Part shown: in pieces, positions 35,886 through 53,712 of the stretch | How positions within the stretch are numbered: position 1 is the stretch's first letter | How the letters are laid out: the number at the start of each line of letters is the position of its first letter | Virus record (IMG/VR): IMGVR_UViG_3300045988_129382 | Span: 96,001-160,000 of that record | DNA from: a virus | Strand: one strand, 5' to 3' | DNA length: 64,000 bases | Position numbers and translations under genes: made by a program | Notes under the pieces: model-generated | The model's input: the letters and a program-made list of their open reading frames with translations, nothing else | What the model was told of the DNA's origin: nothing | Database searches by the model: none

Positions 35886-36785
35886 ATGTCAAATTATAGT
35901 ACAATTATAGAATCATTAGTGAGTACAAGGGTTAATGAGGGAACATTGTTACGTGATTATAAAGGTATCATTAGTCAGTTAAAGAAAGCATTATTATCTA
36001 AGAGTACAGATGTTGTACCTTATGATGCTAATAGGTTATATCTTTCACTAGATTGTGGTTGGTATGGGACTGTTGAGTTATTACCTGTGTATAGCATTGA
36101 TACATTACATGAAAGAGAAGATAATAAAGGTCACATTTTTATTTATGCTGATATGAAAGATGTTATCAAAACAGATACTATTTCACATTACTTAGTTAAT
36201 GGCAAAAAGGTTTCTACTGTTGATGAGATTCTTGTTTATTTGTTAAAGCTGACAGTTAAGGCATTAGATGATAAAGCGTCATGGTATAATGATGATTATA
36301 ATTTAAATGAATTAAAAAGTTTCTTATCGAATACATTTGGATATACATTTACTACTATGTCTGATTTAAAGAAAGATTTGTTAGATAGTAGTGGTGTGTT
36401 ATATAAGACTTATAAATCTGAACTGGAGAAGTATCTGCCTGTTATGATTAATAAGTATACCAAATGTTTAAAAGGGTTAAAAATTAATAGCAATAAGTCA
36501 GTAGATATGACAAAAGATACAATTAGTATTTGTTGTATTGATACTAAGAAGAATATGATTTATATGAGTCGTGCGTCCTCTAATAATGAGCGTTATATTG
36601 TAAATCCTAAGAAGAAAGATTGGAATGGGTACACATTTGATTTTGCACTTGATGATGTTAATAATGCTATTGCAAAATACAAAACATTAGATTGCATAGG
36701 TGGTTTTTCATTTGATTTCTCTGGTCATGCTGAGGGAGACGTTATTCATAATGGTCATAGAGTGCTTAGGTATCAAGTATTATAA
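35886..36785 (+). CDS. leader-bearing paralogue family, group A member
   Basis: N-terminus STIIESLVSTRVNEGTLLRDYK. C-terminus NSNKSVDMTKDTISICCIDTKKNMIYMSR...NPKKKDWNGYTF nearly identical to 37234..38157. Confidence 0.75.
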   Translation: MSNYSTIIESLVSTRVNEGTLLRDYKGIISQLKKALLSKSTDVVPYDANRLYLSLDCGWYGTVELLPVYSIDTLHEREDNKGHIFIYADMKDVIKTDTISHYLVNGKKVSTVDEILVYLLKLTVKALDDKASWYNDDYNLNELKSFLSNTFGYTFTTMSDLKKDLLDSSGVLYKTYKSELEKYLPVMINKYTKCLKGLKINSNKSVDMTKDTISICCIDTKKNMIYMSRASSNNERYIVNPKKKDWNGYTFDFALDDVNNAIAKYKTLDCIGGFSFDFSGHAEGDVIHNGHRVLRYQVL

Positions 36786-36821
36786 TTGGTGATATTATAT
36801 TTGTTAGAGTGGTAATAGTTT

Positions 36822-37223
36822 ATGAGTACTTTATATCTTGATGATGAGATGATGGATTATAAAGATATATTCCTACAGGCTATTCAAGATATAGAAGACT
36901 TGGGGTATAGATTTAAACCAATATTATTAATACATACTTATATGGGACGTAGCAAGAAGATATTAGGTGTTACGTATTGGTATCATGACGATACTTGCTT
37001 GATAGAGTTTTCTGTAAATAATCATAATGTTCATGTATATGATTATGGGACTCATAGAATTACAAGTGATAGGTTAGACATACGCACGATTTATCATGAG
37101 TTGGCACATGCAACTATGGAGTGTCATTTTAAAGGTCATGGTAAGGAATTTAGGGAATTAAGAAATAAGATATTAGAAACATATAAGATAGATATAGGTG
37201 GTGCTATATCTGATTATAATTAG
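36822..37223 (+). CDS. SprT-like zinc metallopeptidase (HExxH)
   Basis: IYHELAHATMECHFKGHGKEFRELRNKI: HELAH plus downstream His, at SprT/WLM-like size (133 aa). Confidence 0.55.
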   Translation: MSTLYLDDEMMDYKDIFLQAIQDIEDLGYRFKPILLIHTYMGRSKKILGVTYWYHDDTCLIEFSVNNHNVHVYDYGTHRITSDRLDIRTIYHELAHATMECHFKGHGKEFRELRNKILETYKIDIGGAISDYN

Positions 37224-37233
37224 GTGATAAGAT

Positions 37234-38157
37234 ATGGGATATTTTAATATTATTGAATCCTTATCAGATACAAGGAACAATAAAGAGGTAGTTAATGAGG
37301 CTACTAGTATTTTACTAGATTATAAATCTGTATTCTCACAATTAGAAAAAGCATTATTATCTTGTAAAGATACTACATTACATGGTGATTGGACTTTTCT
37401 ATTATATCTGTGTGTTGGTAGTATGACACATGTGAGGGTTCTACCTGTATTTGATGTATCTAAATTACATCAAAAGGAGGACACTAAAAAAGGAAGAGGA
37501 TTTATTTATTTAGATATTAATGATGTATTTAAAGCAGATAATGTAGTATACTATTATATTGAAGATACAAATAATAAATATTCTGCTAAAGATGTAGCTG
37601 ACTTCATGATTAATGGTTTGGCTGACACTTTGAAACGTGAAGAGTTATTTATTATGGATGACGAGAGGTATACTGAAAAGTTTAAAAATGACTTTAGAGA
37701 TATTTTAGGGGTTGAGGTAGAAACAATCGATGATGCTATTAAGGTAATTAAGAGTGGTTCTGCATATAAGAAGTTATCTGATTTAATCATTAAAGGGTTA
37801 GATATTGCATTAAAAGAATATGTATCTAATATAAAAGGGTTAGTACCTAACAGTAATAAATCGGTAGATATGACAAATGATACAATTAGTATTTGTTGTG
37901 TAGATACTAAAAAGAGTATGATTTATATGAGTAGGTTCCCTGGCAACGATAGATTTATTATAAATCCTAAGAAGAAAGATTGGAATGGGTATACATTTAC
38001 ATTTGAGTTAGATAAAGTACAGGATGCTGTGTCTAAGTTTAAATCGTTAGAATGTTTTACTGCTGTTGATATTATTCCAAAATCTCGTAAGAAGAGTAAG
38101 ATTAAAGATAATGATAGTGGTCGTGAGGTATTATCCTATATTATTTATGGTGGTTAG
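37234..38157 (+). CDS. leader-bearing paralogue family, group A member
   Basis: MGYFNIIESLSDTRNNKE...LLDYK; shares its C-terminal block with 35886. Confidence 0.75.
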   Translation: MGYFNIIESLSDTRNNKEVVNEATSILLDYKSVFSQLEKALLSCKDTTLHGDWTFLLYLCVGSMTHVRVLPVFDVSKLHQKEDTKKGRGFIYLDINDVFKADNVVYYYIEDTNNKYSAKDVADFMINGLADTLKREELFIMDDERYTEKFKNDFRDILGVEVETIDDAIKVIKSGSAYKKLSDLIIKGLDIALKEYVSNIKGLVPNSNKSVDMTNDTISICCVDTKKSMIYMSRFPGNDRFIINPKKKDWNGYTFTFELDKVQDAVSKFKSLECFTAVDIIPKSRKKSKIKDNDSGREVLSYIIYGG

Positions 38158-38159
38158 TT

Positions 38160-39065
38160 ATGGGATATTCAAATGTCATAGACTCCTTAGTAGATAATCG
38201 CTCAGGTATTAATGAGAGTGGTTTACTAAGGGATAATAAACAGATATTACGTAAGATAGAAAAACAATTACATTTCTTTAAAGAGGCATTTCTTATTGGT
38301 GGTGTAAGTAATAACTTATTCTTTATAGATTGGTTTATTAATAATCGCAGAAAGTATAGTGGTTATTTTGGGTTACGATTACGTATATCAGATACTATGT
38401 ATAAGTGGGTAGAAGATGAAAACAGCTTATATTATTGTATAGATTTAAATGCATTACTATCGTATAATAACATTAAGTACTTTATTTTAGGTGGTAAGTT
38501 AGAGGATTCTTTATATACTGCATTAGAAGATGACATTGAGTCTTTTTGTGATATATTATTTGATAATGGTAGTGGTCTGTCATTAGAAGAGTTAGTATCA
38601 TTTATTAATGGTGTTGGCATTCCTTGTACATATAATAGTTGGAAGGCCGCACGGAATGATATAATGACTAAGAATAAGTTAATTGGTGTACTCACACGGA
38701 TGATGAATACTAAGTTACCAGAATATATCAATGATTGTCTTAGTGTAGATAATGCGTATGTTAGATTACTTAATGGTAGTAAAGATAACTTATTTTATAA
38801 GAATGGGCATGTGGCTGTCGCTAGGGTAGATATTAAAGAAGATAGGGTTGTATTCCCTCATTATGGTAATTTAGAGATATGCTCAATACATGGAAGTGCT
38901 AAAAAAGAGCGTGTTGTTTATCATACAATTAGCGATGTAGTGGATAAAGGATATACTAGCAATAGTGGTTCTGATTTAGTGTTACCTATACTGTCTAAAG
39001 ACAAGTTTAGAATAAATTTATCTGATGATAAGAAGTCATGGGTAGAGACTAGATATCCTAGATAA
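38160..39065 (+). CDS. leader-bearing paralogue family, group A member
   Basis: MGYSNVIDSLVDNRSGINESGLLRDNKQIL; YKWVEDENSLYYCIDLNALLSYNN shared with 39085 and 39883. Confidence 0.75.
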   Translation: MGYSNVIDSLVDNRSGINESGLLRDNKQILRKIEKQLHFFKEAFLIGGVSNNLFFIDWFINNRRKYSGYFGLRLRISDTMYKWVEDENSLYYCIDLNALLSYNNIKYFILGGKLEDSLYTALEDDIESFCDILFDNGSGLSLEELVSFINGVGIPCTYNSWKAARNDIMTKNKLIGVLTRMMNTKLPEYINDCLSVDNAYVRLLNGSKDNLFYKNGHVAVARVDIKEDRVVFPHYGNLEICSIHGSAKKERVVYHTISDVVDKGYTSNSGSDLVLPILSKDKFRINLSDDKKSWVETRYPR

Positions 39066-39084
39066 GAGTGATTGAGGTGATGAT

Positions 39085-39879
39085 ATGAGTAGATTAATAC
39101 GTGATAATAAGAATATACTCAATTTTTTAGTTAAGAAGGCATATCCATATCAAGATGTTGTGACGACTAGGGTTGGTGTTCACTACTATATAAAGGAAGA
39201 ATCTTCTTGTTTTAGGGAAGCATACTTATTACATCTAAATACTGCTAAGGACATGTATACATGGGTAGAAGATAAGCATAACTTATTTTATTGTGTCGAT
39301 ATTAATAAGTTGATGAGATATAATAATTTACGTTGGATTGGTCTTATGGGTACTACTAGGTTTGATTCAGTTGGTATTAGTGGTGAGTTACTTAGAAATA
39401 CTATGAATAGTATTACAAGTTCACTTAATATCACTAACTTAGAGGCTATCAATCGGATGTTACATTTCTATGGCATTACTGATATGGATTATGAATCTAC
39501 GCAGTGGTTTATTAATGATACACATGTATACAAAGCATTTATGACAAAACTAGAGGAAGAGGTTGTTATAAAGTCTGAGAAAGCAATACAGAATTTCTTT
39601 GATGGTGTTATACTGAATAATACTATTAAGAGTAGGTTATTTAATAATACTAAGTTACCTTTGTTGCGATATGATACTAAATCACAGAAGATATACGTAC
39701 CTAATCGTGGAGATATTGTGTTTGTTGACTTTATGTCTAGGACAGGTGATGGAAAAGATGGTAGGGATATCTTTTCTGTAGATGACTTTTTAAGTGGTAG
39801 AATCAATTTAAAATATAATGACTTGTTACATATAGTAACTATTAATGATTATGATATACCATTAGGTGGTGCTTTTTAA
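39085..39879 (+). CDS. paralogue family, group A, leaderless (starts at LIRDNK)
   Basis: MSRLIRDNKNILNFL; YTWVEDKHNLFYCVDINKLMRYNN; KLPLLRYDTKSQKIYVP. Confidence 0.75.
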   Translation: MSRLIRDNKNILNFLVKKAYPYQDVVTTRVGVHYYIKEESSCFREAYLLHLNTAKDMYTWVEDKHNLFYCVDINKLMRYNNLRWIGLMGTTRFDSVGISGELLRNTMNSITSSLNITNLEAINRMLHFYGITDMDYESTQWFINDTHVYKAFMTKLEEEVVIKSEKAIQNFFDGVILNNTIKSRLFNNTKLPLLRYDTKSQKIYVPNRGDIVFVDFMSRTGDGKDGRDIFSVDDFLSGRINLKYNDLLHIVTINDYDIPLGGAF

Positions 39880-39882
39880 TAT

Positions 39883-40722
39883 ATGAAGAGTTTAATGCGT
39901 GATAATAAAAGCATATTGAATTACTTGTATAATAAAGTATATCCTTATCGGAGAGATGTTATTGTTTCTGTTAGGGTTAAGTACTGCTTAGGTGATAAAC
40001 TTATTTCTACTAGTGACTATCATATTGGTATTAAAGCTACTGAAGATATGTACTCATGGGTAGAAAGTGGTAAGAACTTATTATATTGTTTAGATACTAG
40101 TAAATTAGAATATTATAATGTAATATTCTATGGCTTATCTCATAAAGAAGATTGCAATTCCGATGTGTTTAGTGATGATTTATTTGATGATGCCTATAGC
40201 AATATATTAAAAGCACTTAACAGAAAATATGTTGGTGGTCAAAATATCGATAGTCCTTTGGATATATTACATAGATTATTAGATAGTTATAGTATTAATA
40301 TGAGGTATGGTTCTGTACAGGAATTTATCAATGATGGTACTACTAGTCAAATACTTAAACATTGTATGAGGGAACATATTATTGGAGATATTGTATCTTC
40401 TATTTTGCGTACATTACAAAATGTTGAGTTTATATCATCTATTGATAAAATGATGATAGATACATTTAAATTACCATTATTACGCTATGATGCTATATCT
40501 CAGTATGTGTATATTCCATATTATTCCTACATATACATTGTACGGCTTATGTCATACAAAGGTAGTGGTAAGGATTATAGAAATATTGTATCGGTATCAG
40601 ATATAGTAAATAATACAATTCCAACTAGTGTAAATCATAACATTAAGCATTTAGATAAAAACATGAGATTAATTTTAAGTAGTAAATGTGTTTGTAATAT
40701 AGATATTGAAGGTAATTATTGA
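39883..40722 (+). CDS. paralogue family, group A, leaderless
   Basis: MKSLMRDNKSILNYL; YSWVESGKNLLYCLDTSKLEYYN; KLPLLRYDAISQYVYIP. Confidence 0.75.
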   Translation: MKSLMRDNKSILNYLYNKVYPYRRDVIVSVRVKYCLGDKLISTSDYHIGIKATEDMYSWVESGKNLLYCLDTSKLEYYNVIFYGLSHKEDCNSDVFSDDLFDDAYSNILKALNRKYVGGQNIDSPLDILHRLLDSYSINMRYGSVQEFINDGTTSQILKHCMREHIIGDIVSSILRTLQNVEFISSIDKMMIDTFKLPLLRYDAISQYVYIPYYSYIYIVRLMSYKGSGKDYRNIVSVSDIVNNTIPTSVNHNIKHLDKNMRLILSSKCVCNIDIEGNY

Positions 40723-40735: not shown

Positions 40736-41563
40736 TTGGCTAAGAATGTGTTACGAGATAATAAAGCAATAGTAAAACGTATTATAAAGGGTTATAGAGA
40801 TTCTGCTGATAACTTAGACTCTTATGTATTTGTAAGGTTCTTGGATAGTGGTTGTATACTTAACTTTGAGTATAAGGGCTATAAATATTCCTATGTTATT
40901 AATGGTCTTTCTCTTGATACAGATTCAGAAGATATCAAGGTAGTAGAGTATAAGGGAAAAGGGATTATTTGTTTAGATACAAATAATATATTTAAACTTA
41001 GTAGATTAAGAGACGATGGAATTCTTATGTATCCTAATAATATTTCTGTGAGTGGTTTGTTGCATAATATGGCTAATCTTGTGTACAAAGATTTACTTAA
41101 CAGATTTTCTAAGTTTGGGTTACTTGAAGATTTAATGTCATTTTATACGTCTAAGTATGGTGTATTTTGTGATGATTTAGATACATTTAGTAAGTTGTTT
41201 GTTAAGCATAACAAAGAAGCTTTTACATCTATGTTGGGTGATTTATGTTCAGAATTATCTATTGATAAGAACTATTATAGGTTAGCTAGAACTGTGTATG
41301 CTGAAAATGGGTTATTAGGTTTGTGCTGTATGGATTTTGAGACTGATACACTCACTCATGCTATTGATTTCAGAAATAATGTAGAGGATTTAGATATACT
41401 CACAAAGTCAATTACTAATAATAAGATAATGTTTAAGAGTATTAGAGATTGTGTTACTAATCGTAAAGTTTTAAATCAATGTATTGGTTTTGTTTTGTCT
41501 TATAAGGGTAGTGGAAAGACCTACTCTTATGATAAGAGTTCTATGATTGAGTTGGTATGTTAG
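40736..41563 (+). CDS. paralogue family, group A, leaderless
   Basis: AKNVLRDNKAIVKRI; GIICLDTNNIFKLSRLRDDG shared with 41565. TTG start. Confidence 0.7.
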   Translation: MAKNVLRDNKAIVKRIIKGYRDSADNLDSYVFVRFLDSGCILNFEYKGYKYSYVINGLSLDTDSEDIKVVEYKGKGIICLDTNNIFKLSRLRDDGILMYPNNISVSGLLHNMANLVYKDLLNRFSKFGLLEDLMSFYTSKYGVFCDDLDTFSKLFVKHNKEAFTSMLGDLCSELSIDKNYYRLARTVYAENGLLGLCCMDFETDTLTHAIDFRNNVEDLDILTKSITNNKIMFKSIRDCVTNRKVLNQCIGFVLSYKGSGKTYSYDKSSMIELVC

Positions 41564-41564
41564 C

Positions 41565-42380
41565 ATGGGGAATGTATTACGAGATAATAAAACCATATTA
41601 AATAAGACTGTTAATATATTTAGTAGTGCTATGAGTCATCGTATGTCATGTATTGAGGTTTCATTCAATGGTACGATTACATTCATATATAAACAGTTCA
41701 ATTATAGTTTCAGGTTACAGGGTGTAAGGCTTAAAATCAATCCTGAGGATGTAAAACTAATAAATTATAGAGATAAAGCAGTTATTTGTTTAGATACAAA
41801 TAACATATTCAATTATAGTAGGCTTAAAGAAGAGGGTTTGTATTATAATGGTATAGCTGGTTTTATGTCAATACAGAGTGTACTAAAGAATATGGGTAAT
41901 ATTGTGTGGAATACCATGTATAAGACACATACGGATTTATTTAAAGAGTATTGTAGTAAATTATCTGAAGTGTGTGGTGGTTCTTGTGGTGATTTAGACT
42001 CATTCTTGAAGTTATTTATTAAATTTAACTATCCTAATATGGTGTCTGTGTTACAGGATTATATCAGTACACTTAGTGTGGATAACTATGTTGCTAGGGT
42101 ATCTAAGACAATGTACGTTCAAGATGGGTTGATTGGTGTATGTTGTTTTAACTTTAAGGATAACTTAGTGACATTTCCTTATTACGGCAAGACTTCATTA
42201 TCTGGTTTACAGGTGTTTACTACATCAACAAATCAACGTGATATGAAATTACTGAATATTTCAAGCATATTGTCTAATAAAAACAAAATTGATGTTGTGT
42301 TTCTTAAATTAAATCTGAGGATTAGTAATAATTCTCAATTCATGTCTGATGATGGTATGATTAAGTTAGGTGTTGATTAA
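41565..42380 (+). CDS. paralogue family, group A, leaderless
   Basis: MGNVLRDNKTILNKT; AVICLDTNNIFNYSRLKEEG. ATG 41565 preferred over track start 41547. Confidence 0.7.
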   Translation: MGNVLRDNKTILNKTVNIFSSAMSHRMSCIEVSFNGTITFIYKQFNYSFRLQGVRLKINPEDVKLINYRDKAVICLDTNNIFNYSRLKEEGLYYNGIAGFMSIQSVLKNMGNIVWNTMYKTHTDLFKEYCSKLSEVCGGSCGDLDSFLKLFIKFNYPNMVSVLQDYISTLSVDNYVARVSKTMYVQDGLIGVCCFNFKDNLVTFPYYGKTSLSGLQVFTTSTNQRDMKLLNISSILSNKNKIDVVFLKLNLRISNNSQFMSDDGMIKLGVD

Positions 42381-43246: not shown

Positions 43247-43301
43247 TATTGTTGTACTGTATGTATGATGTATAATATATAATAGTATAATGTTTCTGTT
43301 A

Positions 43302-46404: not shown

Positions 46405-47190
46405 ATGGGATATTTTAATATTATAGATTCATTGAGTGATAAAAGAGTAGATGAGTGAATGTTACAGTCTATGGGTGGTGGTACTCATAGAATGAGTGAG
46501 TCAGATGTAAATAGCATAATGTATTCTTTGATGAATGGTGATTTCAACTCTTTATCTAGTTATGTTGATTTTAATTCAGTGGTTGATATTTTTAATAATT
46601 CTCCTTTTGATTCTAAAATTTCACCATATAATATGGGTTCTTTATCTATTTCTAATGGCAAAGGCATTTTTGGTGTTAGGGCATTGCTTAGAAGTCAAGA
46701 TTTTTATATGATGGTTACATTTAATAAGAAGGGTAATTCTACACCTATAGTTAGGTGTGGCATTTACGCTTGTTTAGATGATAACTTGTTGCAGGAAATT
46801 TTCAATAAGAGAGTTAATTTAAAGTTAAATAGTGCTACAGATAAGATAGATGGTTTTAAGTTAGTAGCTAATACATATTACAATGTATCTAAGGAATTTG
46901 TATATACTAGGAGTTTACCTTTGTTTGAACTTTTTTCACGTAAAAGTTTCGAGAGTGTTGCTAAGTCTTATAAAGGTGATTTTGATAAAGACTTTAGGTT
47001 AGTTTTGGGTAGTTCTAGTGGTTTACATTTGTCTTTAGACCCTGATAAATATACGTTTACTATCAGTGTTGAGATTGGAGATAAGAAAAGTCTTGATGAT
47101 GCATTTAAGTTGTTAAGTAAGAATGATTCTATTGGTAAGTATTCTGTCAAAGGTTCTGCATTGAACATTAGTTTTAATATTGGGTTCTAG
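46405..47190 (+). pseudogene. group B paralogue with in-frame TGA replacing the conserved leader Gly codon
   Basis: MGYFNIIDSLSDKRVDE-TGA-MLQSMGG...: 17 leader codons, TGA at 46456-58 where paralogues have GGA/GGT (DEGM), then ATG 46459 opens the 243-aa track ORF in the same frame. Confidence 0.7.
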
Positions 47191-47198: not shown

Positions 47199-47999
47199 AT
47201 GGGATATTTTAATATTATAGATTCTCTTAATGATAAGAGGGTAGATGAGGGAATGGTATCATCTATTTCAAAGAATACTAAGAAACAGAACAAAGATACT
47301 AAGCGTATGGTTGATGCGGTTCTTAGTGGTCAAATCTCTAAACTATCTAATAAAGATATGGATATCAGTCTTTTGGTGCGGAACGATACAAAATTATCTA
47401 AGAATAATAAAAAGTATGAGAAGTATTGTATTGTAGGTACTAAGGCTAATATCTTGCGTACTGAGGTGCGTGGTTATGAAATTAATGGTGATTACGTTGT
47501 AGCTGTTATTGGATATAATTTACATAAAGGAACGACTGTTGGTAAGGCAATGTTATGGGAGTGTTCTAATGAAGATGTATTCAATAAGTTTAAAGAGAAG
47601 ATGGAACATCAGGGTGGCTTTGATTCTATTTATGATGTAAATACTAGTATGTATCGAAGTGGGACTACGTATTATGATAGCAATAGGGATGTGTATTGTG
47701 AAAATACTAAAGAAGCATTGGATATGATTTTCTCTTATTGTGCAGACTCATTCTGCTCTAGTTTATCTAGGTCTGATATCACAGAGGCTTTTAGTCAATT
47801 TGGAACATGCAGATTGGATATATCATCTAGTCAAGATGCTATGTCTACTAGTGTTTTGATAAATTTGTATGGTGGTGAGCCTGGTATTGTTGATTCAATG
47901 TATGATACTATTGGTACTAAAGTGAATACGTTAAATAGTTTTTACAGGTTTATTACATACGCAGAAGATGGGCAAGCTATTATTATATTTAATTTTTAG
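47199..47999 (+). CDS. leader-bearing paralogue family, group B
   Basis: MGYFNIIDSLNDKRVDEGMVSSISKN. Confidence 0.75.
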   Translation: MGYFNIIDSLNDKRVDEGMVSSISKNTKKQNKDTKRMVDAVLSGQISKLSNKDMDISLLVRNDTKLSKNNKKYEKYCIVGTKANILRTEVRGYEINGDYVVAVIGYNLHKGTTVGKAMLWECSNEDVFNKFKEKMEHQGGFDSIYDVNTSMYRSGTTYYDSNRDVYCENTKEALDMIFSYCADSFCSSLSRSDITEAFSQFGTCRLDISSSQDAMSTSVLINLYGGEPGIVDSMYDTIGTKVNTLNSFYRFITYAEDGQAIIIFNF

Positions 48000-48007: not shown

Positions 48008-48811
48008 ATGGGTTATAGTGATTTAATTGATAAGCTAGTAGATATACGCATACACGAAGGTATGTTATCTACCATGGGTGATAAAGGTGTTAGTTCGTTG
48101 GTAAAGGCACTACAAAGTGGTGATGCTAAACATCTTAAAGGTAGTAATATTAAGATAGATGCAGAGTATTATTTTAATAATTCGCCATTCAGTAAGGATT
48201 TATTATCATATGTTGTTAGGGGTGAAGATTTACCTAGCTACAGGGGTAAGGATTTTAAAATATATCATTTATCTTATTGTGGTGATGATTATATATTGGT
48301 CTGTGAGTATGCTAATATAAAAGAAGAGGATAGTCTTTGTAGGTGTGCAATTCATTCATGTTCTAGTAAAGATGATATTGATTCTATATGGGATGATATT
48401 TCTAAAGGAAAAGTACACATAATTTCTGTCAATGATACTTTTAAGGGTTGTGAGATTATATCTATTGCTTTTATGGTTAGTAAGTCAACAAAGATGTTAC
48501 CTAAATCTTATAAAAGTGGAACTATATTAAATAATGATTCTGAAGTATTTGGTGCTATGTTTAGTAATGCTTCAATGTATATTAAGTCTGAGTTATCGTC
48601 TAGGTATGATAAATTTATTAGTATGTTAAAAGATACGTGTATTGAGTATTCTGTATCTCTTGAACGTACTACATTGGAATTTACATTTAGGTTTAATTCT
48701 AAAGTTGAAAGTTCTACATTAGGTAATTATGTAGTATCTTTTATTCATACAAATGATTTTTGTAAAATTGTACAATTTAATGGTTATGTTTTAATTAAAT
48801 TTTTCTTCTAG
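48008..48811 (+). CDS. leader-bearing paralogue family, group B
   Basis: MGYSDLIDKLVDIRIHEGMLSTMG; LCRCAIHSCSSKDD; FKGCEII. Confidence 0.75.
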   Translation: MGYSDLIDKLVDIRIHEGMLSTMGDKGVSSLVKALQSGDAKHLKGSNIKIDAEYYFNNSPFSKDLLSYVVRGEDLPSYRGKDFKIYHLSYCGDDYILVCEYANIKEEDSLCRCAIHSCSSKDDIDSIWDDISKGKVHIISVNDTFKGCEIISIAFMVSKSTKMLPKSYKSGTILNNDSEVFGAMFSNASMYIKSELSSRYDKFISMLKDTCIEYSVSLERTTLEFTFRFNSKVESSTLGNYVVSFIHTNDFCKIVQFNGYVLIKFFF

Positions 48812-48822: not shown

Positions 48823-49635
48823 ATGAGTTATTCAGGCATTATAGATTCATTAGATAGTTTACGTATCAATGAGGGTATGATATCTAGTATAAGTAAGAAT
48901 AAAGATAAAAATGAAGATATAGATTCTCTATGTAGTGCTTTACTTAATGGTTCTTTATTCAGAATACCAACTAAGTATATTGATATACGTGATACACATT
49001 ATTATAATAAATCACCTTTTGATAGTGGTTTATTGAGATATACAATTAGTACTGAACCTCTTAATACTCAGAGAGGTAGGGACTATAGGATTTATCGTAT
49101 GATTAAGGGTAATGAGTATTATTTCATGATTACTCTTTCATCTGTGGATAGATTCTATACAAGAATGAAACGATGTGTCATACATAAATGCGATGATGAA
49201 GAGATAGCTGATACAATTTGGGGTTATGTTAATAGAAAGTCATTACAGATGACATCAATTCATGATACTCTTAAAGGTTGTAAGATAGTTGCTGATACAT
49301 ATAGGGCATTTGATGGGAATGCTGTAGCAGGCTCATTTAAAAATAAGAGCATTTTCAGTGATACAAAAAGCGTTATGGAAGCTATGTTTTCTGATGCTGT
49401 TAACTGTATGAAGTCTTTATTTAAAATTGAGTATGAGCCTTTTATTGATAGGTTGTATTTGAATTGTACTGATTATTCTGTGAGATTAAATGGTGATGTT
49501 CTAACTTTGTATATGAAGTTTGATAATGTAGATACGATATATGATGATTTTAAAAGGGGTTTAGATAATATTAGTACTGATTTTTATTCTTTGTATAAGG
49601 ATAGTAATGGTGTTGGTATTCAGTTTTTCTTTTAG
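48823..49635 (+). CDS. leader-bearing paralogue family, group B
   Basis: MSYSGIIDSLDSLRINEGMISSISKN; MKRCVIHKCDDEE; LKGCKIVADTYRAF. Confidence 0.75.
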   Translation: MSYSGIIDSLDSLRINEGMISSISKNKDKNEDIDSLCSALLNGSLFRIPTKYIDIRDTHYYNKSPFDSGLLRYTISTEPLNTQRGRDYRIYRMIKGNEYYFMITLSSVDRFYTRMKRCVIHKCDDEEIADTIWGYVNRKSLQMTSIHDTLKGCKIVADTYRAFDGNAVAGSFKNKSIFSDTKSVMEAMFSDAVNCMKSLFKIEYEPFIDRLYLNCTDYSVRLNGDVLTLYMKFDNVDTIYDDFKRGLDNISTDFYSLYKDSNGVGIQFFF

Positions 49636-49646: not shown

Positions 49647-50477
49647 ATGTTGAGTAGACGTAGTATTATTCTAGACTCATTGAGTACTCATAGAGTAGAT
49701 GAGGGAATGCTTGATTCTATATCAAAAAATAGTTCAACTATGACTAGTGATAAATTATTTAAAGCGTTGCTTAGTTGTGATATAAATATTATACCTAGTA
49801 AGAATATAAGGTCTAATATGTCTTTTTATAATAAATTACATTTTGATGATGTTGATTTTATTCTTGACTATAAAAAATTGCCTAATAGTAAAGGTAGGCA
49901 TTATTATATTTATCACTTAGTTAAAAATAAAAAGCATTACATTATGATTAGTGCATCTTCCTATAGTATTACATTAAGTGGCTTGTCTAGGTGTTTTATC
50001 TATGAAGCAAGAGATGAAAGTGTGGTAGATTACATTTGGGATTTAGTAGATAAAAATAAGGTAAATTTTGATATTAATCAACTAGGTTCAGGTTTAAAGG
50101 GTTGTAAGACTGTAGCTGATACATATCGTGTTTTTGGTAGTACATTATTAGCTACTGTGTATGGTACTACAGATGATATGCGTATTTTAGAAGACACAGA
50201 AGACGTCATGGGTGTATTATTTGAGAGTAGCATGAGATTAGTCAAGGATGATTATAAAGGTGATTATAAATCTGATATGAGTGAGTTATCATCTTTATGT
50301 TCTGATTATGTGATTAAGCTCAATGATGATGTACTTTCTGTTGAGTTTTACTTTAAAGATATTGAAAGTACTAATAAAGCATATGCTTTCTTTAATAAAA
50401 ATTTGGGTAGGAAGAGCAATTTATATTCATTCTATTCAGATGGTATTAAGTGTGTTGGGTTAGAGTTTTATATTTAA
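49647..50477 (+). CDS. leader-bearing paralogue family, group B
   Basis: SIILDSLSTHRVDEGMLDSISKN; LSRCFIYEARDES; LKGCKTVADTYRVF. Confidence 0.75.
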   Translation: MLSRRSIILDSLSTHRVDEGMLDSISKNSSTMTSDKLFKALLSCDINIIPSKNIRSNMSFYNKLHFDDVDFILDYKKLPNSKGRHYYIYHLVKNKKHYIMISASSYSITLSGLSRCFIYEARDESVVDYIWDLVDKNKVNFDINQLGSGLKGCKTVADTYRVFGSTLLATVYGTTDDMRILEDTEDVMGVLFESSMRLVKDDYKGDYKSDMSELSSLCSDYVIKLNDDVLSVEFYFKDIESTNKAYAFFNKNLGRKSNLYSFYSDGIKCVGLEFYI

Positions 50478-50490: not shown

Positions 50491-51303
50491 ATGGGATATT
50501 TTAATATTATAGATTCATTGAATGATGTTAAAGTTAATGAGGGTATGGTAGATTCTATACCTAAGAATAAAAATAAAGATATTGATAAGTTAGTTGAGGC
50601 TTTGCTACGATGTGACATAGATTTTATTCCTAATAAATATATTAAATCTGAAAAGTCTTTCTACAATAGGTCAAGTTTTAGTAAGGGTTTTGAAGACAAT
50701 GTTATTAAATGGACACGTAATTTAAAGAATAAAAATCCTAATGGTAGAAAATTTTGCATGATTTGTCTTGGTGATGGCAACCGTTTTCTTATGGTTTCTG
50801 AGGTGCGTGATTTCACCGATTTATGTAGGTGTTTTATTTTTAAGGTACCAGATGAGTCTACTGTGGAATCTCTTTTTGAATCTGTACGTGAAGGGAAAAT
50901 AACTTTTGATATAAATAATCCTAAGTTAGATGGTTGTAAGCTGATAACTGATACGTATTGTACTCAAGGTGTAGATTTTGCTGACATTGATACAGGTAGA
51001 GAAGTTATTACACATTATACACGTATATTAAATGATACTGTGCTTGTTATGGAATATATGTTTAATAGACTTATCAAAGCGTTTAAACGTAGTTATGGAG
51101 ATAAGTATGAATACGTTGTTGGGCAGATAGCTGAATTATGTGTTAATTTTGAGGTTTCAATCACAGATGATGGGTTTGCAGTTACATTTGATTTTGGTGG
51201 AGCTAGAAATTGCAATAAAATAGAAAAACTTCTTATAGCTAAAATGAGAAGTGCTTTTTGTTATATTCAGAAAGATGGTAAGAGTAAGATTAAATTAAGT
51301 TAG
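50491..51303 (+). CDS. leader-bearing paralogue family, group B
   Basis: MGYFNIIDSLNDVKVNEGMVDSIPKN; LCRCFIFKVPDES; LDGCKLITDTY. Confidence 0.75.
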   Translation: MGYFNIIDSLNDVKVNEGMVDSIPKNKNKDIDKLVEALLRCDIDFIPNKYIKSEKSFYNRSSFSKGFEDNVIKWTRNLKNKNPNGRKFCMICLGDGNRFLMVSEVRDFTDLCRCFIFKVPDESTVESLFESVREGKITFDINNPKLDGCKLITDTYCTQGVDFADIDTGREVITHYTRILNDTVLVMEYMFNRLIKAFKRSYGDKYEYVVGQIAELCVNFEVSITDDGFAVTFDFGGARNCNKIEKLLIAKMRSAFCYIQKDGKSKIKLS

Positions 51304-51319
51304 TCATGGTGGTTATATT

Positions 51320-52114
51320 ATGTATAGTAAAAGTATTGGTACTATTTTAGAGGGGTTACGTAGTGACTCTAAAACACAAGTTAATGAGTCTGTTTCATTA
51401 ATTAAGAGCATTGTAGATAGAGATATTAAAACTTTGTCTAAGTGTAGTATTAAAGGTGATACTAACTTTGGTAAACATAGTAAGTATTATTTAAATATCA
51501 TTAGGGGAGTTAATAAGGGTGATTTTAGTGAATTACATTTCTCTAATGGGACATATGTAAAAGCGTATGTGAGTGATAAATCTGTTATGTTGTTATTAAG
51601 TCATTTAGTTGATATTTCCCCTAAATCTCATTATATGAGTAATTCATTCATTCGTTATGAGTTTGATAGTAAAGAAACAGCATTGAGTTGTTTTAAAGAA
51701 TTAGAGGGTGGTAAATATTCTTCTACAGAGGATGCACTTAATACTACTTATGATATTATCATGACATATAATGGTAAAGATGTAGAAAGACATGTTGGTA
51801 CTGAGAGTGGTAAAGCAAGTGCTAGTGCTGGTGCTAGGGTAGTATCTGCTTTACAGAGTGTGTTTGATGAGTGGGTTAATACACAATATGGTAAATCTGT
51901 TGATACGTTACCTGTGTTACATGATTGTTATATCAATGGTGATGTAGATTATATCTCTAAACATAAAATTCCTGTATTAGAAGTGTATGTGACCTATTAT
52001 ATGGAAGATAAACAAACAGTAGATGCATTTATACATTTATTTGGTTCTAGATTAAATGGTTATTATAAGGTAGAGAAAGATAGTGTAGTCATTACATTAC
52101 CTAGTGGGTATTAG
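51320..52114 (+). CDS. paralogue family, group B, divergent leader
   Basis: MYSKSIGTILEGLRSDSKTQVNES; the body is divergent. Confidence 0.65.
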   Translation: MYSKSIGTILEGLRSDSKTQVNESVSLIKSIVDRDIKTLSKCSIKGDTNFGKHSKYYLNIIRGVNKGDFSELHFSNGTYVKAYVSDKSVMLLLSHLVDISPKSHYMSNSFIRYEFDSKETALSCFKELEGGKYSSTEDALNTTYDIIMTYNGKDVERHVGTESGKASASAGARVVSALQSVFDEWVNTQYGKSVDTLPVLHDCYINGDVDYISKHKIPVLEVYVTYYMEDKQTVDAFIHLFGSRLNGYYKVEKDSVVITLPSGY

Positions 52115-52118
52115 TTGT

Positions 52119-52966
52119 ATGAATATAAGAAATAATATAATAGAGAGTTTATCTGAGGGTATGTTAAACAATACTAATCAGGTTAATAGTGTGAAACGTA
52201 CTAAAAATGGTGATATGTTTGCTAAATGTCTTTCTAAGACTAGGGGTAGTTTAAGATATGATGACTTTCTTATCTTTTTAAGGTCATGTGCACTAATTCT
52301 GCTAGTAAATATACAAAAGTATTAAGTGGTTATAATAAACTTAGATGTGTTAATAGTTATATGAGCATTGAGTGTGGTGATTGTGAGATACGTATTAAAA
52401 CAAATAAGGAAGATGAGATTTATGTGTTTGTAGATAATCCGTATTCCAATAATAATACAGAAGCACAGATTAGAGATAATAATATTCTAGTGTATAAGGG
52501 TGACTACAGAGTATTTATAGGTGGTATCGTTATTGATATGGTGCATGATATAGATGGTAGATGTAGTACGATTGATGAGTATGTTGATTTAATTACTGAT
52601 TACTTAAAAGAAGAAGGATATACGTATTTCGGAACAACATATGGGGTTGATATGTCTGCTGATAGGAGTACTGAAAGCATTTTAGATGGTCAATACTCTT
52701 TTATGAGTGTTTGCGTTGGGGATGAGTTTTATGAAGCATTTACAGACGATATACTAGGCACAGTGGTAGACGCTAGTGCAGAGGTGTATGTAGCAAAATT
52801 ATACTCTAAGTTAAAGCTACCGACTTTGGGTTGTAGGATGACAATTTCTTTTACATCATCTAAGGAAGCTAAAAATATGTTGAAAGTGCTGGTAGATGTT
52901 GGTGTTGATGTATGGATAAATGATATTAAAGTAGTTGGAACTTCTTTAGTTATTGAGGTATACTAG
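52119..52966 (+). pseudogene. group B paralogue split by a frame change near a T5 run
   Basis: The leader ORF (MNIRNNIIESLSEGMLNN...) runs in one frame to 52325. The body (track ORF 52286..952966 frame, open from 52265) is in the -1 frame. The frames overlap around cttttta (52274-52280). Confidence 0.6.
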
Positions 52967-53712
52967 TGAATAAGATAAATAGTATATTAGAATCCTTATC
53001 AGAGGGTATGCTTGCTAATAGTTTCAAGTCAAATGGTACATCTCTTAAAGCATTTAAAGATTTACTTAATGGTGATATACCTGATAGTATCGCTTTATTT
53101 GTTACTGGTATAGATTTTAATATAAGAGATAACTATAAGTCAGTTTTAAAGTCTAAACGTCAACCTGACATGACTACATTATTGTCAAATGTATATCGTA
53201 TTGGCGATACAGTACTGATGATAGAGTTTAAGTATATGACATTGCCTGTGTGTTTGTTAGTTAGCACTGGGAGTAATTCATTTGACGATGCGTGTATTAA
53301 GTTAGAGAAAGCATTTAAATCTCCTGTAGATAAAGCAATGGATATAATTTCTAACTTAACATTTTATAATGTAGTTGGTACTACGTATAATACGACTAGA
53401 GGTAATGGTACATTCTGTGTTGAGGCATCTGAAGTTATAGAGTCATTCTTGTACTGGTATTATAAAAGTGAATCTAATAAAGGTGTTAAGCGTTGTTGTA
53501 TTGACAGTGAGTTATATAAGTATGTAACTGTTACAGGCATTATATTTAAAAATTTGTGCTTTGGTAATACATCAGATTTACAAATAGATGTAGTGTGTTC
53601 TATTAATAGTGGTGATGATGGTAAGGTACGTGATTTATTAAATACACCTATGAATATGTTCGCACATATTAATAATGATTCGCTTATCATTAGTTTATTG
53701 TTAAAATCATAG
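52966..53712 (+). CDS. leader-bearing paralogue family, group B
   Basis: MNKINSILESLSEGMLANSF. GTG start overlapping the previous stop. Confidence 0.75.
   Translation: MNKINSILESLSEGMLANSFKSNGTSLKAFKDLLNGDIPDSIALFVTGIDFNIRDNYKSVLKSKRQPDMTTLLSNVYRIGDTVLMIEFKYMTLPVCLLVSTGSNSFDDACIKLEKAFKSPVDKAMDIISNLTFYNVVGTTYNTTRGNGTFCVEASEVIESFLYWYYKSESNKGVKRCCIDSELYKYVTVTGIIFKNLCFGNTSDLQIDVVCSINSGDDGKVRDLLNTPMNMFAHINNDSLIISLLLKS

What the first reader, a model, noticed from the sequence alone, without database searches (positions are those of the whole stretch)
35886..53712. An ~18-kb tandem array of 21 diverged paralogous genes sharing a short N-terminal leader: candidate undescribed phage protein arsenal
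Composition:
- 22 back-to-back + strand genes with almost no intergenic space; 21 belong to one very diverged family of about 240-310 aa.
- 15 members begin with a recognisable leader, [ILV][ILV][DE]SL followed 1-8 residues later by EG[MT] or ES. Examples: MGYFNIIDSLNDKRVDEGMVSS, MSYSGIIDSLDSLRINEGMISS, MNKRNSILESLSEGMLTT, MSVNRNILDSLRDIHEGMLSS, IIESLVSTRVNEGTLLRDYK.
- The bodies have diverged to near-unrecognisability, but relict motifs confirm homology: LCRC[AF]I[HF], LKGCK[IT]VADTY, ICLDTNNIF, W VE..NL.YC.D, KLPLLRYD.

Organisation:
- The array splits into two blocks, 35886-43246 and 43362-53712, separated by a hairpin and T-run.
- An HExxH peptidase gene sits inside the first block.
- Two members are decaying (separate findings), which indicates birth-and-death turnover.

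Interpretation:
- I do not recognise any characterised family.
- A short invariant N-terminal tag ending at a Glu, on otherwise hypervariable proteins, is the logic of the T4 internal-protein capsid-targeting sequences and of the phiKZ inner-body protein families, both cut after Glu by the prohead protease.
- By analogy this could be a large set of virion-packaged, leader-processed, host-injected effectors (for example anti-defence proteins). It could equally be something unrelated.
Basis: partly seen in the sequence, partly recalled or inferred. Interest (0 to 1): 0.85.

Follow-up and report, generated by a model that had tools for sequence, protein, structure and literature searches.

The report
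Phage gene array sharing capsid-targeting-like leader
An uncultured ~200-kb T4-type phage from human microbiome samples carries an 18-kb, fast-changing array of about 21 unknown-fold proteins, most starting with a short tag that looks like the signal phage T4 uses to load proteins into its head and have the head protease cut them free, so they are probably delivered into the bacterium with the DNA.

Summary
The array is real: 22 back-to-back + strand genes at 35886-53712, in two blocks split by a hairpin and T-run. It also holds a SprT-like HExxH gene and two disrupted members.

The "one family of 21" claim does not hold by sequence. There are two body families (7-8 and 10 members) plus 3-4 orphans, with no detectable homology once leaders are removed.

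The leader is robust. Sixteen copies occur in the window (14 intact, 2 disrupted), always at the N-terminus, conserved as peptide rather than DNA, and confined to this phage clade in a search of 1.84 billion proteins. It ends in [L/I/V]-x-E followed by G/S/A.

Walking along a related contig that also holds the array shows a T4-type head module: Portal_T4, a gp23-type capsid protein and a gp21-family (Peptidase_S77) prohead protease fused to a scaffold. T4 gp21 cuts after Glu in L/I-x-E. The same motif sits at the capsid propeptide boundary (IHE|G) and is about 4-fold enriched in the protease-scaffold, as in T4 gp22.

The bodies have no Pfam, PHROG, PDB or annotated viral match. The array varies far more than the head genes.

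Best reading: a greatly expanded analogue of T4 internal proteins. No virion or cleavage data exist.

The parts
35278..35317 (+). 18-bp-stem hairpin followed by a T-run, upstream boundary of the block-1 transcription unit; TATATAAG follows at 35324-35331
   Evidence: terminator-like scan; TATATAAG 27-28 nt before the 35359 start, same motif as upstream of the capsid gene in L053
35359..35883 (+). Acidic Zn-ribbon protein (174 aa), conserved 5' neighbour of the array; has 'NISE|S' near its N-terminus
   Evidence: PF08271 weak; conserved in all relatives
35886..36785 (+). B1 member with leader (MSNYSTIIESLVSTRVNE|GTLLRDYK; leader 35886-35939); present in only some relatives
36822..37223 (+). SprT-like HExxH metallopeptidase-like protein (133 aa), no leader; conserved at the 5' end of the array in all relatives
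   Evidence: PF10263 E=3.5e-5, below cutoff
37234..38157 (+). B1 member with long leader (MGYFNIIESLSDTRNNKEVVNE|AT; leader 37234-37299)
38160..39065 (+). B1 member with leader (MGYSNVIDSLVDNRSGINE|SGLLRDNK; leader 38160-38216); modelled by AlphaFold
   Evidence: pLDDT 77, residues 1-24 disordered; no PDB fold match
39085..39879 (+). B1 member without leader, starts MSRLIRDNK
39883..40722 (+). B1 member without leader, starts MKSLMRDNK
40736..41563 (+). B1 member without leader, starts MAKNVLRDNK
41547..42380 (+). B1 member without leader; the likely true start is ATG 41565 (MGNVLRDNK)
42380..43246 (+). Leaderless 288-aa protein starting MSALRDNR; body not detectably related to B1 or B2; 90-95% identical across the IMG/VR relatives and 93-97% in the same-genome-pair comparison
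43301..43334 (+). 15-bp-stem hairpin plus T-run separating the two blocks, preceded by a tandem TATAAT-like element (43270-43295)
43362..44132 (+). Orphan body with leader (MATIQERVESIIESLHIRE|GM; leader 43362-43418)
   Evidence: orthologue P0304
44140..44883 (+). B2a member with short leader (MNKRNSILESLSE|GML; leader 44140-44178)
44885..45613 (+). B2a member with short leader (MSKRNSILDTLSE|GML)
45622..46404 (+). B2b member with leader (MSVNRNILDSLRDIHE|GML)
46405..46458 (+). Detached leader MGYFNIIDSLSDKRVDE followed by TGA in place of the Gly codon
   Evidence: intact fusion seen in P0258
46459..47190 (+). B2b body restarting at the Met that normally follows Glu-Gly (leaderless through a nonsense mutation)
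47199..47999 (+). B2b member with leader (MGYFNIIDSLNDKRVDE|GMV)
48008..48811 (+). B2b member with leader (MGYSDLIDKLVDIRIHE|GML)
48823..49635 (+). B2b member with leader (MSYSGIIDSLDSLRINE|GMI); modelled by AlphaFold
   Evidence: pLDDT 84.5, pTM 0.80, residues 1-28 disordered; no annotated fold match
49647..50477 (+). B2b member with leader (MLSRRSIILDSLSTHRVDE|GML)
50491..51303 (+). B2b member with leader (MGYFNIIDSLNDVKVNE|GMV)
51320..52114 (+). Orphan body with leader (MYSKSIGTILEGLRSDSKTQVNE|SV)
52119..52325 (+). Short-form leader (MNIRNNIIESLSE|GML...) in a different frame from the following body: 5' part of frameshifted g52286
52286..52966 (+). Orphan body of g52286; in frame with a leader in most relatives
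   Evidence: P0246; L081 1319-2155
52966..53712 (+). B2a member with short leader (MNKINSILESLSE|GML)

Best explanation
The leader is a capsid-targeting propeptide.

PROPOSED MECHANISM
1. The N-terminal 13-23 residues have two parts: a short amphipathic element [ILV][ILV][DE][ST]L, and a processing site [L/I/V]-x-Glu followed by Gly, Ser or Ala.
2. This tag carries otherwise unrelated 25-33 kDa proteins into the assembling prohead by binding the scaffold core.
3. The phage's T4 gp21-type (Peptidase_S77) prohead protease then cuts after the Glu.
4. The released mature proteins stay inside the DNA-filled head and enter the host with the genome.
5. The array is therefore a greatly expanded, fast-turning-over counterpart of the T4 internal-protein genes. 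Its most plausible role is early host takeover or counter-defence.

SHOWN BY COMPUTATION
- The leader is a discrete, peptide-level-conserved module found only at N-termini and only in this clade, on at least two body families that are unrelated in sequence.
- The clade has a gp21-family protease, a gp23-type capsid protein and a T4-type portal.
- The leader's end matches the gp21 rule, and the motif marks the clade's own capsid and scaffold proteins.

INFERRED
- Binding to the scaffold, cleavage, packaging, ejection and the function in the host.
- The fate of the leaderless paralogues. They would either act in the infected cell or ride in by associating with tagged paralogues.
For: LEADER ANATOMY AND SPECIFICITY
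- There are 16 leader copies in the window, all at N-termini, with a gap of about 5 orders of magnitude to the next hit.
- The leader profile finds 71 cluster representatives among 1.84 billion. All but two spurious hits have the match within residues 1-18, and every full-length one with a detectable body match resembles an array member; many others are short fragments.
- No leader hit occurs in about 1 Mb of other fetched loci, including the head and replication regions.
- Conservation is at peptide level. Leu uses TTA/CTT/TTG/CTA and Ser uses both TCN and AGT codons.
- Leader identity is 53% within families and 40% between families, against 22% when shuffled. Bodies between families are at the shuffled baseline.
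- Four of the six nearly invariant columns of the 45-sequence B2 alignment are leader positions: L10, E17, G18 and M19.

MODULARITY
- Leaderless B1 paralogues start 2-4 residues before the LRDNK motif, which in tagged paralogues follows the Glu.
- P0177 is a g38160-type body that starts at LRDNK.
- The g46459 body restarts at the Met after Glu-Gly.
- The same body carries different leader variants in different genomes.
- AlphaFold places the leader in a low-confidence flexible extension with one short helix, ahead of a confident body.

SITE PATTERN
- P3 is I, V or L. P2 is free (N, D, H, R, S, E). P1 is Glu, with a single Asp variant among about 120 orthologues. P1' is G, S or A.
- This matches the T4 gp21 motif L/I-X-E (PMC9026906).

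PROTEASE AND HEAD MODULE
- One 206,942-bp contig holds the array (L001/L068), Portal_T4 (L022), Peptidase_S77 fused to a coiled coil (L053 15523-17349; E=5.9e-17, 62 bits against a cutoff of 27) and Gp23 (E=2.3e-10).
- The protease aligns to T4 gp21 (E=1e-11) and keeps the GExNHP and SSR motifs.

SAME MOTIF IN THE PHAGE'S OWN HEAD PROTEINS
- The capsid propeptide carries 'TAIHE|GTD' at residue 64, invariant in all four clade variants. It aligns with 'MTE|ST' of the nearest cultured phage, HSE3.
- The protease-scaffold has 11 [LIV]xE[GSA] sites against 2.6+-1.5 expected (0 of 5000 shuffles).
- The positive control behaves the same: T4 gp22 has 10 against 2.4, and HSE3 gp062 has 15 against 3.5.

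HYPERVARIABILITY
- For the same genome pairs, head and portal genes have median identity of about 98%. Array-region genes have medians of 82-91%, with members at 38-69% and gains and losses.
- In a divergent relative, bodies are 36-48% identical while leaders are almost unchanged.

PRECEDENT
- T-even internal proteins are described as diverse defence proteins that share only a conserved CTS (PMC3012670).
- A 10-residue CTS is sufficient for packaging foreign proteins (PMC9026906).
Against: - There are no virion proteomics, N-terminal sequences or expression data. Everything rests on sequence logic.
- The head module was read on related contigs, not in the window itself. The link to the window is gene order plus an identical protein (g62815) in L005.
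- The leader has no sequence similarity to the T4 CTS (MKTYQEFIAE).
- The array lies among replication and nucleotide-metabolism genes, about 35 kb from the protease. Its promoter class is unresolved: block 1 shares TATATAAG with the capsid gene, while block 2 has a tandem TATAAT-like element.
- The bodies of tagged members are not depleted of internal [LIV]xE[GSA] sites: 10 observed against 6.2 expected.
- Six or seven members lack a leader.
- The capsid site aligns with HSE3's candidate site, not column-for-column with T4's E65|A66, which falls in a T4-specific insertion.
- Proteins of 25-33 kDa would probably have to unfold to leave through the portal.
Confidence: 0.55

Rival explanations
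1. The proteins are packaged and processed as proposed, but they serve the virion itself. They would form an inner-body or core-like mass, or help condense DNA in an enlarged head, rather than act as effectors in the host.
For: - The phiKZ and SPN3US head paralogue families are abundant internal components with variable copy number (PMC5694885).
- T4 IPIII affects head assembly (PMC9026906).
- The genome is about 200 kb, so the head is large.
- g42380 is highly conserved across the clade.
Against: - Gene content differs between genomes whose head genes are about 98% identical, which is unusual for structural necessities.
- The pI of the mature proteins ranges from 4.5 to 9.0, with no uniform basic, DNA-binding character.
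Confidence: 0.15
2. The proteins are not virion components. They would be cytoplasmic host-takeover or counter-defence proteins made during infection. The shared N-terminal peptide would be a common handle, such as a docking peptide for a shared partner, a degradation or timing signal, or an oligomerisation element, and it would not be cut by the head protease.
For: - The array sits among replication and nucleotide-metabolism genes, next to an HU-like gene.
- Block 2 is preceded by a sigma-70-like tandem TATAAT element.
- Many paralogues work without the leader.
- Internal motif copies are not depleted.
Against: - This reading does not explain why the tag always ends in the exact gp21-type motif with a free P2 position.
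- It does not explain why that motif also marks the capsid propeptide and the scaffold of the same phage.
- It does not explain why the boundary of leaderless paralogues coincides with the predicted cut.
Confidence: 0.2
3. The leader is removed, or otherwise used, by the SprT-like HExxH protein encoded inside the array. That would make a self-contained processing system independent of head assembly.
For: - The SprT-like gene is conserved at the 5' end of the array in every relative examined.
- From my own background knowledge, not a tool result: zincin-type peptidase domains accompany delivered effector proteins in phage and plasmid 'polyvalent proteins'.
Against: - The Pfam match is below the curated cutoff.
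- I know of no Glu-specific cleavage by SprT-type enzymes (my own knowledge, not tested).
- The site motif fits the S77 rule and is shared with the capsid and scaffold proteins.
Confidence: 0.06
4. The leader has no function. It would be kept similar only by recent duplication and gene conversion between neighbouring genes.
For: Leader variants do move between bodies, giving mosaics, so recombination is active at gene 5' ends.
Against: - Synonymous codon variation, including TCN and AGT serine codons, accompanies an invariant peptide.
- The leader is kept on sequence-unrelated bodies.
- It is kept in a relative whose bodies are only 36-48% identical.
- The Glu is near-invariant while P2 varies freely.
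Confidence: 0.03

Closest known systems
T4 internal proteins IPI, IPII, IPIII (and Alt) with the capsid targeting sequence, processed by prohead protease gp21
   Same: - A short N-terminal tag sits on otherwise unrelated proteins.
- The tag ends in [L/I]-x-Glu followed by a small residue.
- The phage encodes a gp21-family (S77) protease, a gp23-type capsid protein and a T4-type portal.
- The genes lie outside the head gene cluster.
- The gene sets vary strongly between close relatives (PMC9026906, PMC3012670).
   Different: - The leader has no sequence similarity to MKTYQEFIAE.
- Leaders are 13-23 residues long, and many have a spacer between the hydrophobic element and the cut site.
- There are 14-16 tagged genes in one 18-kb tandem array, against three scattered IP genes in T4.
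- The proteins are 25-33 kDa, whereas T4 IPs are smaller (about 8-20 kDa, from my own recollection, not checked here).
- Leaderless paralogues are interleaved with tagged ones.
- The protease is fused to the scaffold.
- Nothing has been shown experimentally.
phiKZ / 201phi2-1 / SPN3US head paralogue families (inner-body and ejection proteins; SPN3US paralog family B, gps 138-154)
   Same: - Large tandem arrays of paralogous head proteins occur in big phages with a gp21-type protease that cuts after Glu.
- Copy number varies between relatives (PMC5694885).
- SPN3US gp143-154 is a back-to-back + strand array of 275-500-aa proteins.
   Different: - There is no sequence relationship (hhalign P 0.5-0.95).
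- No member matched any Pfam family, including PF12699.
- The N-termini of SPN3US family B show no Glu-terminated leader, and PMC5694885's list of eight processed head proteins contains none of its members.
- The phiKZ motif is S/A-x-E rather than L/I/V-x-E.
- The present phage shows no chimallivirus hallmarks in the regions read.
Hyperplastic regions of T4-type genomes bounded by promoter/stem-loop cassettes (PeSLs)
   Same: - A variable gene block lies between conserved modules.
- Stem-loops adjacent to promoter-like elements sit at the block boundaries (35278-35331 and 43270-43334). The concept is taken from the titles and abstracts of PMC2839356 and PMC4122927.
   Different: - I did not show that these elements are repeated or mediate recombination.
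- The one shared 10-mer I tested is not enriched.
- Here recombination appears to use the leader-coding 5' ends.
Bacillus phage vB_BceM-HSE3 (MF418016), nearest cultured relative by capsid protein
   Same: - Its gp23-type capsid protein is 38% identical.
- It has the same protease-scaffold fusion (gp062), with the same motif enrichment.
- It has a candidate capsid site 'MTE|S' at the aligned position.
   Different: - Its genome is 124 kb.
- I read only 12.7 kb of it, so whether it has any tagged array is unknown.
- tblastn with g48823, the one member tested, found nothing in any deposited phage.

Membership tests
T4-type CTS-bearing, gp21-processed internal head proteins | The phage encodes a gp21-family (Peptidase_S77) prohead protease | tested here: met
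   PF03420 E=5.9e-17, 62.2 bits against a cutoff of 27. BLASTP against T4 gp21 gives E=1e-11. The protease is on the same 206,942-bp contig as the array, not inside the window.
T4-type CTS-bearing, gp21-processed internal head proteins | A short N-terminal propeptide ends in L/I-x-Glu | tested here: met
   All 16 leaders end in [LIV]-x-E followed by G, S or A, with the Glu at residues 13-23. The motif rule is from PMC9026906.
T4-type CTS-bearing, gp21-processed internal head proteins | The tag is conserved while the mature parts are diverse or unrelated | tested here: met
   hhalign of bodies gives P=0.3 and P=0.03. Leader identity is 40-53% against a shuffled 22%.
T4-type CTS-bearing, gp21-processed internal head proteins | Sequence similarity of the tag to the T4 CTS (MKTYQEFIAE) | tested here: not met
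   By inspection the two tags show no sequence similarity. In addition, the leader profile recovers only this clade among 1.84 billion representatives. The resemblance is in logic, not sequence.
T4-type CTS-bearing, gp21-processed internal head proteins | The same cleavage motif is used in the phage's own capsid and scaffold proteins | tested here: met
   The capsid protein carries IHE|G at residue 64. The protease-scaffold has 11 sites against 2.6 expected, and the T4 gp22 control has 10 against 2.4. These are predicted sites, not observed ones.
T4-type CTS-bearing, gp21-processed internal head proteins | Proteins are physically present in the head with the tag removed, and are ejected into the host | not testable with these tools
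   This needs virion proteomics or N-terminomics. The phage is uncultured.
phiKZ/SPN3US head paralogue families | Sequence homology to PF12699 proteins or to SPN3US paralog family B | tested here: not met
   No Pfam hit for any member. hhalign against SPN3US gp144-154 gives P 0.5-0.95.
   Only the secondary-structure order of the two models is similar, and I could not compare the models directly.
SprT-like zinc metallopeptidase (gene 36822-37223) | HExxH motif and a match to PF10263 above the curated cutoff | tested here: inconclusive
   HELAH is present. The Pfam E-value is 3.5e-5, but 24.1 bits falls below the 25.6-bit cutoff. The stored annotation also marks it as weak.

The most novel reading that the evidence does not exclude
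The array would be an injected-effector arsenal. Fourteen or more proteins of previously unseen folds are each addressed to the capsid by a portable 13-23-residue tag, released by the head protease, and delivered with the DNA. The set is reshuffled between near-identical phages by recombination at the tag-coding 5' ends. On this reading the tag is a sequence-only marker of what an uncultured phage injects. The leaderless paralogues would be a second, intracellular arm of the same repertoire.
Probability: 0.3. Interest if true: 0.8.

Novelty: new variant of a known kind. Interest (0 to 1): 0.62.

Why it matters
If the tag works as proposed, three things follow.
- Injected proteins could be read directly from the genome of a widespread, uncultured phage of the human (probably oral) microbiome.
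- More than a dozen novel-fold proteins would become candidates for early host takeover or counter-defence.
- There would be a natural, portable packaging tag for a T4-type phage outside the enterobacterial models.

It would also show that the T4 internal-protein strategy can expand to about 9% of a genome. The mosaics seen here suggest the tag-coding 5' ends are where that repertoire is reshuffled; this is my inference, not something I demonstrated.

Tried and rejected
- **Deposited phages:** megablast of the array and tblastn of g48823 against 50,697 phage genomes gave no match.
- **Protein families:** Pfam and PHROG scans of individual members, of all 45 B2 sequences and of the 8 B1 sequences gave no family.
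- **Solved structures by sequence:** profile searches of PDB sequences found nothing.
- **Fold searches:** Foldseek of both models against PDB gave best E values of 0.13 and 0.59. Against BFVD there was only one uncharacterised myovirus protein.
- **SPN3US paralog family B:** unrelated.
- **B1-B2 homology:** enriched profiles gave P=0.03, which is not significant.
- **Avoidance of internal cleavage motifs:** tagged bodies are not depleted (10 against 6.2 expected). Only B1 has zero sites.
- **TATATAAG as a late promoter:** the intergenic copies are suggestive, but the 8-mer is not enriched overall (9 against 15 expected). I left this as a lead.
- **Shared TGTACTGTAT at the two hairpins:** not enriched.
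- **Host identification:** the YadA/SLH protein found no relatives in GTDB genomes.
- **Column-exact alignment of the capsid site with T4 E65|A66:** not obtained. T4's site lies in an insertion.

Full report

The region 35886-53712 holds 22 consecutive + strand ORFs of 133-307 aa with gaps of a few bases. The window is 29-35% G+C with a strong, uniform positive GC skew, and nearly all sizeable ORFs are on the + strand.

A hairpin followed by a T-run at 43301-43334 splits the array into two blocks. A stronger hairpin at 35278-35317 precedes the acidic Zn-ribbon gene that opens the first block's transcription unit. Gene 36822-37223 carries HELAH and a sub-threshold SprT-like match.

- Upstream of g46459 lies an intact leader, MGYFNIIDSLSDKRVDE. 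It is followed by TGA exactly where the other genes have the Gly codon, and the body restarts at the next ATG.
- g52286 has a short-form leader (52119-52325) out of frame with its body.
- Both are intact in relatives (P0258, P0246, L081).

**2. One family or several?**

All-against-all BLASTP gives two clusters.
- B1: 35886, 37234, 38160, 39085, 39883, 40736, 41547.
- B2: 44140, 44885 and 52966 as one subgroup, plus 45622, 46459, 47199, 48008, 48823, 49647, 50491.

The only links between blocks are alignments of about 45 residues at the N-termini. Profiles of each block recover only their own members.

After removing the leader plus eight residues, hhalign gives these results:

| Comparison | Result |
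|---|---|
| B1 vs B2 | P=0.3 |
| The two B2 subgroups | P=6e-6 |
| Bodies of g42380, g43362, g51320, g52286 vs either family | nothing |

With alignments enriched by database homologues, B1 against B2 reaches only P=0.03, probability 1.7%. Between-family body identity (24%) equals a shuffled control (23%).

The AlphaFold models of g48823 (pLDDT 84.5, pTM 0.80) and g38160 (pLDDT 77, pTM 0.72) have a similar order of helices and strands. Very remote common ancestry therefore remains possible, but I could not superpose the models. The claim of 21 members of one family is not supported by sequence. What is shared is the leader.

**3. The leader**

*Where it occurs.*
- A profile of 14 leaders finds 15 sites in the six-frame translation of the whole window at E <= 1e-5. 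One of them was untrained. All lie at ORF N-termini inside the array, and the next hit has E=0.38. With the 17-residue remnant before g46459 the window holds 16 copies.
- The same profile hits nothing in about 1 Mb of other fetched loci, including replication, terminase, portal and head regions.
- Run against 1.84 billion cluster representatives, it returns 71 proteins. All but two spurious hits have the match within residues 1-18, and every full-length one with a detectable body match resembles an array member; many others are short fragments.
- The leader is therefore specific to this clade and strictly N-terminal.

*Its anatomy.* M-x(3-9)-[ILV][ILV][DE][STKG]-L-x(1-12)-[VI]-x-E, followed by G, S or A. 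The short form is ILESLSE|GM, in which the Leu of the first element doubles as P3.

*How it is conserved.*
- Across about 120 orthologues, P3 is I or V, P2 varies freely (N, D, H, R, S, E), P1 is Glu with a single Asp exception, and P1' is Gly.
- Conservation is at peptide level. Leu uses four codons and Ser uses both TCN and AGT.
- Four of the six nearly invariant columns in the 45-sequence B2 alignment are leader positions.
- In a divergent relative, bodies are 36-48% identical while leaders are almost unchanged.

*It is a separable module.*
- The five leaderless block-1 proteins (39085, 39883, 40736, 41547 and g42380, whose body fits neither family) begin 2-4 residues before the LRDNK motif, which in tagged B1 paralogues follows the Glu.
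- P0177 is a g38160-type body that starts at LRDNK.
- One body carries different leader variants in different genomes.
- AlphaFold leaves residues 1-24 and 1-28 as low-confidence extensions with one short helix over the IIDSL element.

**4. What kind of phage, and does it have the right protease?**

The window encodes NrdD, a UvsX/RecA-like recombinase, an SbcC-like ATPase, an HU-like protein and a YadA-plus-SLH adhesin-like protein. The array proteins occur only on unannotated metagenomic contigs of up to about 195-215 kb.

I walked outward from the window in two steps.
- A contig sharing an identical window protein shows a Portal_T4 gene about 9 kb past the window end (L005).
- I then followed the 206,942-bp contig that also carries the array (L001/L068, L022, L053).

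On that contig the gene order is: terminase-like, portal, several unknowns, an AAA/HEMAH/VWA trio, a TnpB insertion, a 608-aa protein, and finally the capsid gene.

The 608-aa protein is the key find.
- Residues 51-190 are Peptidase_S77, the T4 gp21 family (E=5.9e-17, 62 bits against a cutoff of 27).
- The rest is coiled coil.
- The capsid gene that follows matches Gp23 (E=2.3e-10).
- The protease aligns to T4 gp21 (28% identity over 166 aa, E=1e-11) and keeps GExNHP and SSR(G/A).

The capsid protein matches 1,190 deposited phages, mostly T4-type at about 25% identity. The best is Bacillus phage vB_BceM-HSE3 at 38%, and that phage has the same protease-scaffold fusion.

**5. Does the leader's end match that protease?**

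Published work states three relevant points.
- T4 gp21 cuts after Glu in L/I-X-E, removing N-terminal propeptides of 7 to 65 residues.
- The 10-residue CTS of IPIII suffices for head targeting.
- Asp at P1 blocks processing but not targeting (all three from PMC9026906).

phiKZ-type relatives cut after Glu in S/A-X-E (PMC9026906, PMC5694885). All 16 leaders fit the T4 rule.

Within the phage's own head proteins:
- The capsid N-terminus carries 'TAIHE|GTD' with the Glu at residue 64, invariant in all four clade variants. A second site, LLE|S, lies at residue 14.
- The tetrapeptides IHEG and INEG are the same as in the leaders of g45622/g48008 and g48823.

MAFFT aligns IHE|GT with HSE3's MTE|ST, about 21 residues before the conserved MPNLIAND. 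T4's LTE65|A66 falls in a T4-specific insertion. The site is therefore analogous to T4's rather than column-identical.

Motif counts for [LIV]xE[GSA]:

| Protein | Observed | Expected from composition-preserving shuffles | Shuffles reaching observed |
|---|---|---|---|
| This clade's protease-scaffold | 11 | 2.6 +- 1.5 | 0 of 5000 |
| T4 gp22 scaffold (known multi-site substrate) | 10 | 2.4 | 0 of 5000 |
| HSE3 gp062 | 15 | 3.5 | 0 of 5000 |

All three portal sites lie in its first 95 residues.

An N-terminal site with the Glu at residues 8-30 is present in 14 of 21 array proteins and in 5 of 48 other window proteins. Three of those five are the array's immediate neighbours.

**6. Evidence that cuts the other way**

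- Bodies of tagged members are not depleted of internal motif copies (10 against 6.2 expected). Only B1 has none.
- Expression class is unresolved. TATATAAG lies 27-67 nt upstream of the capsid gene, a head-module gene and the block-1 unit, but the 8-mer is not enriched overall. Block 2 and the 930-aa gene share a tandem TATAAT-like element.
- The array lies about 35 kb from the protease, among replication genes.
- No experimental data exist.

**7. Turnover**

Nine related genomes keep the frame: 930-aa gene, Zn-ribbon, SprT-like, B1, g42380, hairpin, B2, HU. Members 35886, 37234, 38160, 44140 and 46459 are present or absent, and the 48008-50491 zone holds a variable number of copies.

For the same genome pairs, head and portal genes have median identity of about 98%. 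Array-region genes have medians of 82-91%, with several at 38-69%.

**8. Body function**

No Pfam or PHROG family matches any member. There is no PDB sequence or fold match. The single BFVD match is an uncharacterised myovirus protein. Mature sizes are 25-33 kDa and pI ranges from 4.5 to 9.0. Function is inferred only by analogy with T4 IPI, an injected anti-restriction protein (PMC9026906, PMC3012670).

**9. Comparison with what is known, and verdict**

The closest known system is the T4 CTS/internal-protein system. PMC3012670 describes T-even internal proteins as a highly diverse set of defence proteins with only a conserved CTS.

Features met here:
- a family-S77 protease;
- a Glu-terminated N-terminal tag;
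- a conserved tag on diverse bodies;
- the same motif in the capsid and scaffold proteins;
- variability between relatives.

Not met: sequence similarity of the tag to the T4 CTS. Not testable here: presence in virions, cleavage and ejection.

SPN3US paralog family B is an organisational analogue only.

I rate this a new variant of a known kind. The logic is the known one, in a distant, uncultured T4-type lineage. It is expanded to 14-16 tagged genes in one hypervariable 18-kb array, interleaved with leaderless paralogues, with novel bodies and a new tag.

Confidence that the tag is a capsid-targeting, protease-removed propeptide is about 0.55. Confidence that the cargo are host-directed effectors is lower.

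Noticed in passing
window 32467-35259, 35359-35883, 54968-55480; L081 4190-4690: The array's neighbours carry their own N-terminal [LIV]-x-E-[small] sites. These are the 930-aa protein with a Lys-rich C-terminal tail ('KYINE|S'), the acidic Zn-ribbon protein ('YNISE|S') and the acidic 170-aa protein ('NSITE|A'). In a divergent relative the last one reads 'DSIAE|S'. They may be further processed head proteins with different tags.
   Followed up: partly
window 53776-54543: The gene just after the array starts MRKVLEALDNES, which resembles a degenerate short-form leader (ILESLSE|G). The leader profile does not hit it and it lacks a hydrophobic P3. It is conserved in relatives.
   Followed up: partly
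window 12845-13397: A cluster of six tRNA genes (Ser-tga, Trp, Ser-gct, Arg-cct, Met, Leu-tag).
   Followed up: no
window 59856-62675: A phage-encoded 939-aa protein has YadA head, stalk and anchor domains followed by an SLH domain. From my own knowledge, this architecture is typical of trimeric autotransporters of diderm Firmicutes such as Veillonella, which hints at the host. A scan of GTDB genomes found no relative. The sample names (HMP and other human cohort metagenomes) suggest a human, possibly oral, source, but I did not verify the body site.
   Followed up: partly
L053 17406-19519; L047 12390-13202; L008 1443-6011; L005 10352-12691; L053 14208-15317: Mobile elements pepper core genes of this clade. 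The capsid gene is split by an endonuclease-bearing insertion in some genomes but is continuous in others. Inteins or LAGLIDADG elements sit in DNA polymerase A and the clamp loader. A TnpB (IS605 OrfB) gene sits inside the head module.
   Followed up: partly
L022 16760-20278; L053 10455-13962: A trio of genes lies between the portal and the prohead protease: a 1,172-aa double-AAA protein, a 606-aa HEMAH metallopeptidase-like protein and a 556-aa acidic protein with a C-terminal VWA domain. This is a MoxR/VWA-like set in an unusual place.
   Followed up: no
L022 10001-11719: All three [LIV]xE[GSA] sites of the 572-aa portal lie in its first 95 residues (IKE|S at 29, INE|G at 65, IVE|G at 92). 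This would fit N-terminal processing of the portal, as reported for giant phages.
   Followed up: partly
window 6791-10391: Three adjacent ORFs of about 400 aa (6791-7996, 7971-9218, 9222-10391). The first and third share PHROG 12517 and weak N6/N4 DNA methylase matches. This may be another small paralogue set.
   Followed up: no
window 32289-32466 and 43247-43361: The same tandem element GTATAATATATAATA lies upstream of the 930-aa gene and of block 2. In block 2 it comes directly before the hairpin. It is a possible shared promoter class, distinct from the TATATAAG seen before the capsid gene and block 1.
   Followed up: partly
window 41547-41565: The mechanical ORF start (TTG 41547) overlaps the previous gene. 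Alignment with paralogues (MGNVLRDNK) points to ATG 41565 as the real start.
   Followed up: partly
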